A stretch of 64,000 nt of DNA from Escherichia coli. GTDB lineage: Bacteria > Pseudomonadota > Gammaproteobacteria > Enterobacterales > Enterobacteriaceae. The position numbers are program-made. Location: the NCBI RefSeq assembly GCF_030013595.1, contig NZ_CP122768.1. The stretch is one strand, 5' to 3'. Of this stretch, positions 61,829 to 64,000 are shown piece by piece (positions within the stretch are counted from its first letter, which is position 1; each line of letters starts with the position of its first letter).

Positions 61829-64000
61829 TCATCCTCTCCGGATAAGGCACGGGCGTAATCTGCCAGTGTTTTCTTGTTGGTTGCTGCACCATCCTCTTCC
61901 TGCAGGCTCGCCAGCAGTGCACTGAGATCCAGCTGCCAGCGGGAAATACTGATGCGCAGCGCCGCCAGCGCATAGACGAAGCAGTCGAGCGCCTCATTGC
62001 GTCGCTTTTTGCTGTCCCACAGTATTTTTTTCCTGCCATCCACCCATTTTTCGACCTGCTCTTCAGCAGTCAGCTGCTGCGCTTCGGTCAGATCAAAAAT
62101 ATCCGGGTTATTCGGGAAGTGAACGGCACCGGGAAGCGGTTCATCCCCTTCCGGCGTCAGTGTGAAGCGGTTATAAATCTGCTCTTTCGCGGTATCCGTA
62201 CCGATTTCGGTAAGGTAAACCCCGTTTTTGTTTCGCTTACGTGGCATGCTGGCCACCGGCTTTCCGTAGACGGATGCCCCTTTAATGGGGATCACCCGGA
62301 ACAGCCCATGCTTTTTCGAGCGTTCATACACAATGGTCGGGTCAATCCCGCCAGTATCCCAGCAGATACGGGATACCGACATTTCTGCACCATTCCGGCG
62401 GGTATAGGTTTTATTGATGGCCTAATCCACACGCAGCAGCGTCTGTTCATCGTCGTGGCGGCCCATAATAATCTGCCGGTCAATCAGCCAGCTTTCCTCA
62501 CCCGGCCCCCATCCCCATACGCGCATTTCGTAGCGGTCCAGCTGGGAGTCGATACCGGCGGTCAGGTAAGCCACACGGTCAGGAACGGGCGCTGAATAAT
62601 GCTCTTTCCGCTCCGCCATCACCTCAGCATCCGGACGTTCGCCGATTTTCGCTTCCCATGTCTCACCGAGCGTGGTGTTCACGAAGGTTTTACGTTTTCC
62701 CGTATCCCCTTTCGTCTTCATCCAGTCTTTGACAATCTGCACCCAGGTGGTGAACGGGCTGTACGCCGTCCAGATGTGAAAGGTCACACTGTACGGCGGC
62801 TCAATCTCTTCACCGGATGACGAAAACCAGAGAATGCCATCACGGGTCCAGATCCCGGTCTTTTCGCAGATATAACGGGCATCAGTAAAGTCCAGCTCCT
62901 GCTGGCGGATGACGCAGGCATTATGCTCGCAGAGATAAAACACGCTGGAGGGGTCATCCGGCGTCCATTTGAGGCCAAACGGCGTCTCTTTGTCGCCAAA
63001 TTTAAGATACTGCTCCTCCCCGCAGTGCGGGCAGGCAACATGAAAACGCATAAAATGCGGGGATTCACTGGCTGCACGCTCAATCTGGCAGGTGCCTCTC
63101 ACTTTGGGCGTGGAGCCACGGATGGACTTTGGCCAGACCGAGCCTTCAATACGTTTGTCGCCAAGGAACGTCGGAGAGCCTTCCTGTTCAATATCCTCAT
63201 CAAAGGCAGCAAGTTCATCATAACCCGCCACATCCACCGACTTTTCACGGTAGTTTTTTGCCGCTTTACCGCCCAGGCACCAGAAGCCACGCCCATTAGT
63301 GAAACGCTTCATGGTGAGCGTGTTATCCCGGTGCTTTTTGCCATACCACGGGGCCAGCGCCAGCAGCGACGGAATATCACGAATAGTCGGCTCAACGTGG
63401 GTTTTCATAAAGTTCTCGGCATCACCATCCGTCGGCAACCAGATAAGGGTGTTGCGCTGCTTATGCTCTATGAAGTAGGCATAAACACCCAACAGCATTT
63501 TGGAATAACCGACACGGGCAGACTTCACCACATTCACCTCACGGATGTAGTCGCTGCCCATCGCATTCATGATGGCCCGCTGAAAGGGCAGTGTTTCCCA
63601 GCGCCCTTCCTGGTATGCGGATTCTTTCGGGAGATAGTAATTAGCATCCGCCCATTCAACGGCGGTCTGTGGCTCCGGCCTGAACAGTGAGCGAAGCCCG
63701 GCGCGGACAAAATGCCGCAGCCTGTTAACCTGACTGTTCGATATATTCACTCAGCAACCCCGGTATCAGTTCATCCAGCGCGGCTGCTTTGTTCATGGCT
63801 TTGATGATATCCCGTTTCAGGAAATCAACATGTCGGTTTTCCAGTTCCGGAAAACGCCGCTGCACCGACAGGGGGATCCCGTCGAGAATACTGGCAATTT
63901 CACCTGCGATCCGCGACAGCACGAAAGTACAGAATGCGGTTTCCACCACTTCAGCTGAGTCTCTGGCATTCTTCAGTTCCTGTGCGTCGGCCTGCGCACG

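What the first reader, a model, noticed from the sequence alone, without database searches (positions are those of the whole stretch)
62419..62427. Single in-frame amber codon in terminase large subunit gene A
The A reading frame is open for 641 codons (63750 down to 61825), exactly the lambda gpA length, except for one TAG at 62422..62424. The flanking translation is ...LLRVD * AINKTYT...; lambda gpA reads ...LLRVDEAINKTYT... as I recall, so this looks like GAG/GAA (Glu) to TAG. This would truncate terminase at about residue 442 and block DNA packaging unless an amber suppressor tRNA is present. It could mark a recently inactivated prophage, a suppressor-dependent phage, or a base-call error.
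Basis: partly seen in the sequence, partly recalled or inferred. Interest (0 to 1): 0.6.

Follow-up and report, generated by a model that had tools for sequence, protein, structure and literature searches.

The report
Natural amber stop in prophage terminase
A lambda-like prophage in this E. coli chromosome has one real, inherited stop codon in its DNA-packaging enzyme gene, so it probably cannot package its own DNA; this is an ordinary early step of prophage decay.

Summary
The gpA-type terminase large-subunit gene (63750..61825, minus strand) matches lambda A codon for codon over 641 codons, with one in-frame TAG at 62424..62422 (codon 443). Lambda and the closest prophages have GAG (Glu) there, so this is a single G-to-T change.

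It is not a base-call error. The exact 442-aa truncated product is recorded on 22 public E. coli contigs from at least 9 independent datasets. The TAG sits on 5 synonymous-only A haplotypes, and it occurs twice in one NCTC genome. It is absent from 4,379 homologous copies in 5,426 complete E. coli genomes, from 75 sequenced phages, and from IMG/VR and JGI metagenome contigs.

The stop cuts the endonuclease domain (Pfam residues 322-600) and removes the coiled-coil helix and the portal-docking tail. Lambda Aam42 loses only 5 residues and is already packaging-dead, but it can be rescued in trans.

All 21 other late genes in the window are intact. The prophage sits at tRNA-Ser (serT), next to hyaA. 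A near-clonal relative has swapped the whole cos-to-J arm for one with an intact A.

Verdict: a real, heritable, natural "Aam-like" null allele in a defective lambdoid prophage that may still be mobilisable by a helper. No evidence supports suppression. Ordinary; low interest.

The parts
62422..62424 (-). In-frame amber codon TAG at codon 443 of gene A. The ancestral codon is GAG (Glu), and the mutated base is window position 62424.
   Evidence: The same TAG is present in 10 other public loci.
61825..63750 (-). Gene A, a lambda gpA-type terminase large subunit: 641 codons, GTG start, interrupted once.
   Evidence: 98.6% DNA identity to lambda A over 100% of its length. Pfam on an intact allele gives GpA_ATPase at residues 47-285 and GpA_nuclease at residues 322-600.
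62422..63750 (-). Upstream ORF (the end coordinate includes the TAG) encoding the 442-aa truncated product. It keeps the TerS-binding N-terminus, the ATPase domain and the first ~43% of the nuclease domain.
   Evidence: The exact product is in public data as STE02599.1, STE74065.1 and UniRef100_A0A376H5T4, on 22 contigs.
61825..62382 (-). Downstream in-frame ORF of 185 aa (Met457 to the end), holding the rest of the nuclease domain, the coiled-coil helix and the portal-binding tail. It would be made only by reinitiation, and nothing shows that it is.
   Evidence: gene callers list it as a separate GpA_nuclease gene; the same fragment is called behind many unrelated lesions of A.
63725..64000 (-). 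3' part of Nu1, the terminase small subunit. It is cut by the window end, and the 91 visible codons are intact.
   Evidence: There is one window-private synonymous change at 63956.
41694..61828 (-). The rest of the late operon: W, B, C, D, E, FI, FII, Z, U, V, G, T, H, M, L, K, I, J, lom, stf, tfa. All are full length.
   Evidence: tblastn of the 21 annotated proteins of the HCP5S3_I2 prophage finds no stops. Twenty align end to end without gaps. stf aligns in two pieces around a length difference but is one 828-aa ORF here.
41158..41245 (+). tRNA-Ser (anticodon UGA, serT) at the junction between prophage and chromosome. hyaA and the rest of the hya operon follow on the chromosomal side.
   Evidence: The same junction is found in the NCTC genome and in GCA_030347955.1.
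46500..64000 (.). The part of the cos-to-mid-J 'left arm' visible in the window. It is ~2.7% divergent from the otherwise near-identical prophage of the near-clonal relative HCP5S3_I2. This tract carries the amber haplotype.
   Evidence: In the homologous NCTC locus the other boundary lies 72 bp right of cosN.

Best explanation
This is a real, heritable loss-of-function nonsense allele, a natural counterpart of the classical lambda 'Aam' mutants. It lies in the terminase large-subunit gene of a lambdoid prophage integrated at tRNA-Ser (serT), between hyaA and yccA.

Shown: a single G-to-T change turned Glu443 (GAG) into TAG. The allele is inherited and shared by several E. coli strains. The rest of the late operon in the window is intact.

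Inferred from lambda biology: in a non-suppressing host, translation stops after residue 442. The product keeps the TerS-binding N-terminus and the ATPase motor. It lacks more than half of the endonuclease domain, the dimerising coiled-coil helix and the C-terminal portal-docking tail. It should therefore neither cut cos nor dock on proheads, and an induced prophage would make heads, tails and lysis proteins but no DNA-filled particles of its own.

The defect should be recessive. A co-resident or infecting lambda-type phage with the same cos and terminase specificity could package this prophage in trans, or repair it by recombination. This fits the allele being found on several recombinant backgrounds, and it fits a near-clonal relative carrying a replaced cos-to-J arm with an intact A.
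For: Sequence: TAG at codon 443 versus GAG in lambda and in the two closest prophages.

Not an error, and not private to this window: the exact 442-aa product is on 22 contigs. One search lists it in 31 index blocks, and the ten places shown come from 9 distinct samples, 4 of them raw-read Logan assemblies. All 10 loci have TAG at codon 443, and together with the window they make 5 distinct A haplotypes that differ only at synonymous sites.

Same prophage at the same site: the NCTC genome and GCA_030347955.1 share the window's exact J protein next to hyaA.

Loss of function:
- Pfam places the nuclease domain at residues 322-600, so the stop at 443 cuts through it.
- TerL-lambda has the endonuclease centre, the coiled-coil helix and the portal tether in its C-terminal domain (PMC9026076).
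- Lambda Aam42 lacks only the last 5 residues and already fails in prohead binding, gives a very low yield from a mono-lysogen, and is rescued ~2000-fold by A+ in trans (PMC4856287).

Consistent with lethality for a free phage: the allele is absent from 0 of 75 sequenced phage records, from IMG/VR, from JGI metagenome contigs, and from 4,379 homologous copies in 5,426 complete E. coli genomes.

Only lesion visible: the 21 other late genes are intact, and the late genes are full length in all carriers.

Intact parent exists: the otherwise identical Glu443 protein WP_063100971.1 is on record. Intact L033 and amber L011 differ in A by this one base.

Precedent for trans-packaging: O157 prophage Sp4, which lacks an intact terminase, is packaged, probably by the terminase of Sp14, whose cos is nearly identical (PMC2669165). 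cosN is intact in the carriers that reach it.

gpA is commonly broken in E. coli prophages by other lesions: an IS66 insertion, deletions and frameshifts.
Against: Function was not tested. Packaging failure is inferred from lambda genetics, not measured for this prophage.

Only 64 kb of the genome is visible. A host suppressor tRNA, a helper prophage, or lesions in the early region (integrase, repressor, replication, Q, lysis genes, cos) cannot be excluded for this strain. Those parts were seen only in relatives.

Some features are a little unexpected for a purely neutral dead allele. The amber form is recorded on more contigs (22) than its exact intact parent (4; 6 contigs read). It persists on 5 haplotypes. 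No second lesion has accumulated in any carrier. A clonal expansion of the host plus frequent gene conversion would explain all of this.
Confidence: 0.85

Rival explanations
1. Sequencing or assembly artefact: the true codon is GAG, and the TAG is a base-call or polishing error.
For: It is a single-base substitution. The genome probably carries several near-identical lambdoid late modules that could confuse polishing; the relative HCP5S3_I2 has 6 matching places for the late region. No reads are available to check.
Against: The identical TAG occurs in at least 9 independent samples, including 4 raw-read Logan assemblies, and twice in one NCTC genome. It sits on 5 different haplotypes. Two other assemblies carry the same prophage at the same serT junction, and one of them (the NCTC genome) carries the amber. 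Cross-mapping from paralogous prophages would import GAG, because none of the 4,379 other copies has TAG.
Confidence: 0.02
2. Suppressor-dependent or read-through phage: the TAG is decoded by a host or phage amber-suppressor tRNA, or by efficient natural read-through, so full-length gpA is made and the phage is viable in its own host.
For: The rest of the late operon is intact in every carrier. The allele persists on several backgrounds and is recorded more often than its intact parent. Most of the genome is not visible.
Against: The window holds only a wild-type tRNA-Ser(UGA), and there are no tRNA genes in the 10-kb flanks of the other carriers. There is only one in-frame TAG among 22 late genes, so this is not genome-wide recoding. 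No isolated phage or viral contig carries the allele. supE-type glnV(CUA) was found in 154 of 5,423 complete-genome records, and the 25 listed are all laboratory K-12 derivatives, while this chromosome is that of a wild pig-type isolate. No one-step sense revertants (Gln, Lys, Tyr, Leu, Ser, Trp) are recorded.
Confidence: 0.04
3. Selected (domesticated) allele: the truncation is maintained because it benefits the host. For example, gpA(1-442) still binds TerS and could poison the terminase of superinfecting or co-resident lambda-type phages once their Q protein switches on the resident late operon. Alternatively, it could prevent release of infectious particles while keeping other prophage functions.
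For: The amber form is on 22 contigs against 4-6 for the exact intact parent. It is present on 5 haplotypes and in two different prophages of one genome. Recombination came within ~210-220 nt on both sides without removing it. There is no secondary decay of neighbouring genes. The truncated product retains the N-terminal TerS-binding and ATPase parts.
Against: The allele is rare overall: 0 of 4,379 copies in complete genomes. The contig counts may reflect one sampled clone. A near-clonal relative has replaced the arm with an intact A. The lambda A amber mutant that was tested, Aam42, is recessive rather than dominant. gpA is broken in many unrelated ways in other prophages, which is the pattern of neutral decay. 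There is no direct evidence of any phenotype.
Confidence: 0.06
4. Laboratory origin: a lambda vector or lysogen carrying an engineered or classical Aam mutation.
For: Amber mutations in lambda A are classical laboratory tools; Aam42 is one example.
Against: The gene differs from lambda at 26 other positions. The prophage has a non-lambda backbone and sits at serT, not at the lambda att site. The chromosome is 100% identical to pig faecal isolates over 17.3 kb.
Confidence: 0.01

Closest known systems
Classical amber mutants of phage lambda gene A (for example Aam42)
   Same: An in-frame TAG in the same gene, with the same predicted result: truncated TerL, no packaging on a non-suppressing host, and a recessive defect that can be rescued in trans.
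   Different: This allele arose naturally in a wild lambdoid prophage whose A gene has 26 other differences from lambda. It is at codon 443, inside the nuclease domain, rather than at the fifth-to-last codon. It is shared by several wild E. coli strains. I could not find out whether any laboratory Aam allele maps to codon 443.
Defective lambdoid prophages of E. coli O157 Sakai, such as Sp4 with a disrupted terminase (Asadulghani et al. 2009, PMC2669165)
   Same: A lambdoid prophage with an inactivated terminase gene and otherwise largely intact morphogenesis genes. It is potentially packaged by the terminase of a sibling prophage with the same cos.
   Different: There the lesion is an IS insertion in nu1. 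Here it is a point nonsense mutation in A. Trans-packaging was shown experimentally for Sp4 and is only inferred here.
Stop-codon-recoded phages (TAG reassigned, with a phage-borne suppressor tRNA)
   Same: An in-frame TAG in a late gene essential for virion production.
   Different: There is only one TAG among 22 late genes, and no suppressor tRNA in the window or in the carriers' flanks. The ancestral codon is a normal GAG in thousands of homologues. This is not recoding.

Membership tests
Lambda gpA-type terminase large subunit (TerL) | N-terminal GpA_ATPase domain and C-terminal GpA_nuclease domain | tested here: met
   Pfam PF05876 at residues 47-285 (E 3e-50) and PF20454 at residues 322-600 (E 3e-74) on the intact allele. 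The same families hit the two fragments in the carriers.
Lambda gpA-type terminase large subunit (TerL) | Colinear with lambda A (641 codons) and in the gene order Nu1-A-W-B | tested here: met
   100% coverage and 98.6% identity to lambda 711..2636, with Nu1, W and B flanking the gene.
Lambda gpA-type terminase large subunit (TerL) | Uninterrupted reading frame giving a full-length enzyme | tested here: not met
   One TAG at codon 443. By descent it is a gpA gene, but it is not a functional member.
Defective prophage / nonsense pseudogene | Premature stop where intact homologues have a sense codon | tested here: met
   GAG in lambda and two prophages. None of 4,379 E. coli copies or 75 phage copies matches the TAG-containing 61-mer exactly; the best matches differ by one base.
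Defective prophage / nonsense pseudogene | Integrated in the chromosome and inherited, not a sequencing artefact | tested here: met
   Flanked by tRNA-Ser and the hya operon. The allele is in at least 9 independent datasets, and the same prophage and site occur in two other assemblies.
Defective prophage / nonsense pseudogene | Actual loss of DNA packaging and plaque formation | not testable with these tools
   Inferred from the domain map and from the lambda Aam42 phenotype. It needs an induction experiment.
Suppressor-dependent (conditional-lethal amber) phage | An amber-suppressor tRNA (CUA anticodon) in the host or phage | tested here: inconclusive
   None in the window or in the carriers' flanks. 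The rest of the genome is not available. The base rate appears low: the 25 supE-type genomes listed are all laboratory K-12 derivatives.
Suppressor-dependent (conditional-lethal amber) phage | The allele is found in free, propagating phage | tested here: not met
   0 of 75 phage records, and 0 exact matches in IMG/VR and in JGI metagenome contigs.
Stop-codon-recoded phage | Many in-frame TAG codons across the late genes | tested here: not met
   No stops in the other 21 late genes.

The most novel reading that the evidence does not exclude
The amber is not just decay but a maintained allele. The 442-aa fragment keeps the TerS-binding N-terminus and the ATPase domain, and it would be expressed when an incoming lambda-type phage transactivates the resident late operon. 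It could then act as a dominant-negative decoy that poisons the invader's terminase, which would be a prophage-encoded defence made from a broken packaging enzyme. This would explain why the allele is recorded more often than its intact parent, why it sits on 5 haplotypes and in two prophages of one genome, and why no second lesion has followed.
Probability: 0.05. Interest if true: 0.6.

Novelty: new member of a known kind. Interest (0 to 1): 0.18.

Why it matters
On its own it matters little. A nonsense mutation in a prophage terminase gene is a textbook first step in prophage decay, and amber mutants of lambda A have been known for decades.

It has modest practical value in three ways:
- It flags this otherwise complete-looking prophage as probably unable to spread by itself, which matters for prophage-prediction tools that would score it as intact.
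- It is a clean natural example of a lethal phage allele that persists and is shuffled by recombination among resident lambdoid prophages, with a near-clonal relative apparently 'repaired' by swapping the whole cos-to-J arm.
- It is an easy experimental handle, a single-codon defect, for testing trans-packaging between co-resident prophages in wild E. coli.

Tried and rejected
1. Laboratory lambda. Rejected: 26 other differences from lambda, a non-lambda backbone, and insertion at serT.

2. Private or recent mutation, or a sequencing error. I first leaned this way because 0 of 4,379 copies in complete genomes carry the TAG. The exact-protein look-up then found the truncated product in many independent assemblies.

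3. Using the 185-aa downstream fragment (392 contigs) to count amber carriers. Rejected: that fragment is called behind many unrelated lesions of A, including an IS66 insertion, deletions and frameshifts.

4. Host-lineage test through the window's AppA allele. Uninformative: 96 index blocks, and the samples shown do not overlap the carriers. The J-protein look-up worked better.

5. Exact 40-mer scans of IMG/VR and JGI metagenome contigs. No matches.

6. Revertant search for Gln, Lys, Tyr, Leu, Ser or Trp at residue 443. None on record.

7. Literature on amber suppressors in natural E. coli isolates. No paper in the held library had all the search terms. The classical gpA domain paper PMC1203432 is not held.

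8. A solved structure to place residue 443. No PDB relative was found by sequence. Structure prediction was not run, because it would not change the verdict.

9. The low-GC ORF at 8353..9609 was considered as a possible island. By size and position it matches the native K-12 gene yccE, between agp and cbpA. This rests on my recollection of the K-12 map and was not tested.

Full report
OBSERVATION. The minus-strand frame from 63750 to 61825 translates as a 641-residue protein with one internal stop, in the context ...DDEQTLLRVD*AINKTYTRRNG... The TAG occupies 62424..62422. The ORF lister splits the gene into a 442-aa ORF (62422..63750, GTG start) and a 185-aa ORF (61825..62382). The gene is 98.6% identical in DNA to lambda A over its whole length, and up to 99.3-99.4% identical to wild lambda-like phages and prophages. 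A base-by-base comparison shows codon 443 is GAG (Glu) in lambda, in the best complete-genome match (DETEC-S565) and in HCP5S3_I2, and TAG here. That is a single G-to-T change at window position 62424 on the coding strand. Only 4 of the 27 differences from lambda are non-synonymous, the amber included. The gene therefore evolved under purifying selection, and it is not laboratory lambda.

CONTEXT. Positions 1 to about 41,000 are ordinary E. coli chromosome. The annotated homologous stretch in a relative covers gfcE, etp, etk, appA, appCB and hyaABCDEF. A tRNA-Ser(UGA) lies at 41158..41245 and is the only tRNA in the window. From 41,694 to the window end, a lambda-type late operon runs on the minus strand: tfa, stf, lom, J, I, K, L, M, H, T, G, V, U, Z, FII, FI, E, D, C, B, W, A and Nu1, the last cut by the window end. 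All 21 late genes other than A are full length with no stops, and the visible 91 codons of Nu1 are intact. The amber is thus the only lesion in 22.7 kb of late genes.

The chromosomal flank is 100.0% identical over 17.3 kb to two UK pig faecal isolates, HCP5S3_I2 and LCP30S3_I5. In HCP5S3_I2 the homologous element is a complete-looking prophage of about 45 kb between serT and yccA. It has integrase, exonuclease, a RacR-type repressor, replication genes, Q, lysis genes, terminase, and head and tail genes.

IS IT REAL? I first found that none of the 4,379 homologous copies in 5,426 complete E. coli genomes matches the 61-mer centred on the TAG; the best are one mismatch away. None of 75 sequenced phages matches it either. 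That pattern could have meant a private mutation or an error.

An exact-sequence look-up of the 442-aa truncated product then showed it is already in public data. It is on 22 contigs, all E. coli (STE02599.1, STE74065.1, UniRef100_A0A376H5T4). The ten places shown come from 9 distinct samples, 4 of them raw-read Logan assemblies, and the product occurs twice in one NCTC genome, GCA_900448395.1. All ten loci have TAG at codon 443. None is identical to the window (99.26-99.93%). A base-call error is therefore excluded for practical purposes.

POPULATION PICTURE.
- Haplotypes: the window and the ten loci make 5 distinct A haplotypes. Every difference other than the shared TAG is a synonymous third-position change at a site that also varies among intact alleles.
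- Mosaic structure: outside A, the differences between carriers cluster in blocks (FI, FII, Z, V-G-T-H), which is the signature of mosaic recombination. The window has two private synonymous changes, at 63956 in Nu1 and 61329 in B.
- Intact parent: the otherwise identical protein with Glu443 exists (WP_063100971.1) but is on fewer contigs (4; 6 read).
- Matching backgrounds: intact L033 and amber L011 differ in A by that single base, and intact L035 and amber L006 differ by it plus one synonymous site. The amber is thus a segregating variant within a recombining family of late modules.
- Revertants: no one-step sense revertants are on record.
- Same prophage elsewhere: the window's exact J protein occurs only in the NCTC genome and in GCA_030347955.1, both next to hyaA, so these carry the same prophage at the same site.
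- Swapped arm in the relative: in HCP5S3_I2, a tract running from 72 bp right of cosN to mid-J is ~2.7% divergent and carries an intact A. Everything around that tract is almost identical: 3 mismatches in the 9.3 kb upstream of cos, and 4 in the 15.6 kb downstream. A whole cos-to-J arm was exchanged in one of the two lineages.

WHAT IT DOES.
- Domain map: Pfam places the ATPase domain at residues 47-285 and the endonuclease domain at 322-600. The stop at 443 leaves about 43% of the nuclease domain and removes everything after it.
- What is lost: according to the Feiss laboratory's review, TerL-lambda has an N-terminal TerS-binding and motor domain. Its C-terminal domain comprises the endonuclease centre, a helix predicted to form a coiled coil, and a tether that docks on the portal (PMC9026076).
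- Phenotype of a much smaller truncation: lambda Aam42 lacks only the last five residues. It cannot bind proheads, gives a very low yield from a mono-lysogen, and is rescued about 2000-fold by A+ phage in trans (PMC4856287).
- Inference: a truncation that removes 199 residues should be a null for cos cleavage and packaging, and it should be recessive. This step is inferred, not shown.
- Precedent for rescue: cosN is intact in the carriers whose contigs reach it. The O157 prophage Sp4 lacks an intact terminase but is packaged, apparently by a sibling prophage's enzyme (PMC2669165). Helper-dependent mobilisation and recombinational repair are therefore plausible routes by which the allele persists and moves. 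gpA is also found broken by IS66 insertion, deletions and frameshifts in other E. coli prophages, which shows this gene is a common casualty of prophage decay.

RIVALS.
- Suppression or read-through: there is no CUA tRNA in the window or in the carriers' flanks. There is only one in-frame TAG among 22 late genes. supE-type glnV occurs in 154 of 5,423 complete-genome records, and the 25 listed are all laboratory K-12 derivatives. The rest of this genome is not visible, so suppression is unlikely rather than excluded.
- A selected, domesticated allele, for example a dominant-negative decoy: the amber form being recorded more often than its parent, its presence on several haplotypes and in two prophages of one genome, and the lack of secondary decay all hint at this. 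A sampled clone plus gene conversion explains the same facts. The tested lambda A amber, Aam42, is recessive.
- Laboratory origin: excluded by the haplotype and the insertion site.

COMPARISON AND NOVELTY. By descent the gene belongs to the lambda gpA family (domains, colinearity and gene order all tested and met), but it fails the requirement for an uninterrupted frame. It behaves like a classical lambda Aam mutant and like the terminase-defective prophages of O157. It is not a recoded phage. This is a new natural instance of a well-known kind of lesion.

VERDICT. The finding is ordinary, with a small point of interest in the allele's persistence and in the cos-to-J arm exchange. Interest 0.18.

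Noticed in passing
window 46500..64000 (and L005 9292..9364; L001): Compared with the near-clonal relative HCP5S3_I2, the prophage differs by ~2.7% only in one tract, from 72 bp right of cosN to mid-J. The 9.3 kb upstream of cos has 3 mismatches, and the 15.6 kb beyond mid-J has 4. A whole 'left arm' of the mature phage chromosome was swapped, with one boundary at cos.
   Followed up: partly
L004 and L005 (GCA_900448395.1, contigs UFZA01000001.1 and UFZA01000003.1): One NCTC E. 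coli genome carries the amber A twice, behind two different early/lysis regions. One has a lambda-like Q, porin, S/R/Rz and bor. The other has DUF968, RusA, Q, a methyltransferase and a GH108 endolysin. The Nu1-to-FI stretch is nearly identical between the two copies. This is either recent gene conversion between co-resident prophages or an assembly join across the repeat, since contig 3 ends inside FI.
   Followed up: partly
window 42278..44764 (stf): The side tail fibre gene is a single 828-aa ORF here but 672 aa in HCP5S3_I2. The central part (window ~43582..44022) does not align between the two otherwise identical regions, so this is an internal length polymorphism.
   Followed up: no
L038 13602..14939 (GCA_030347955.1): In another strain with the same prophage at serT, an IS4-family transposase is inserted between J and lom. 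The window has no such insertion.
   Followed up: no
L014-L023: The 185-aa C-terminal gpA fragment (Met457 to the end) is recorded on 392 contigs behind many unrelated lesions: an IS66 insertion, large deletions that leave only the 3' end of A, and multiple frameshifts. Terminase large-subunit genes are frequently broken in E. coli prophages.
   Followed up: partly
window 8001..10000: A low-GC stretch (GC 0.367) contains a 418-aa ORF at 8353..9609 on the minus strand. By size and position it looks like the native gene yccE, between agp and cbpA. This rests on my recollection of the K-12 map and was not tested.
   Followed up: no
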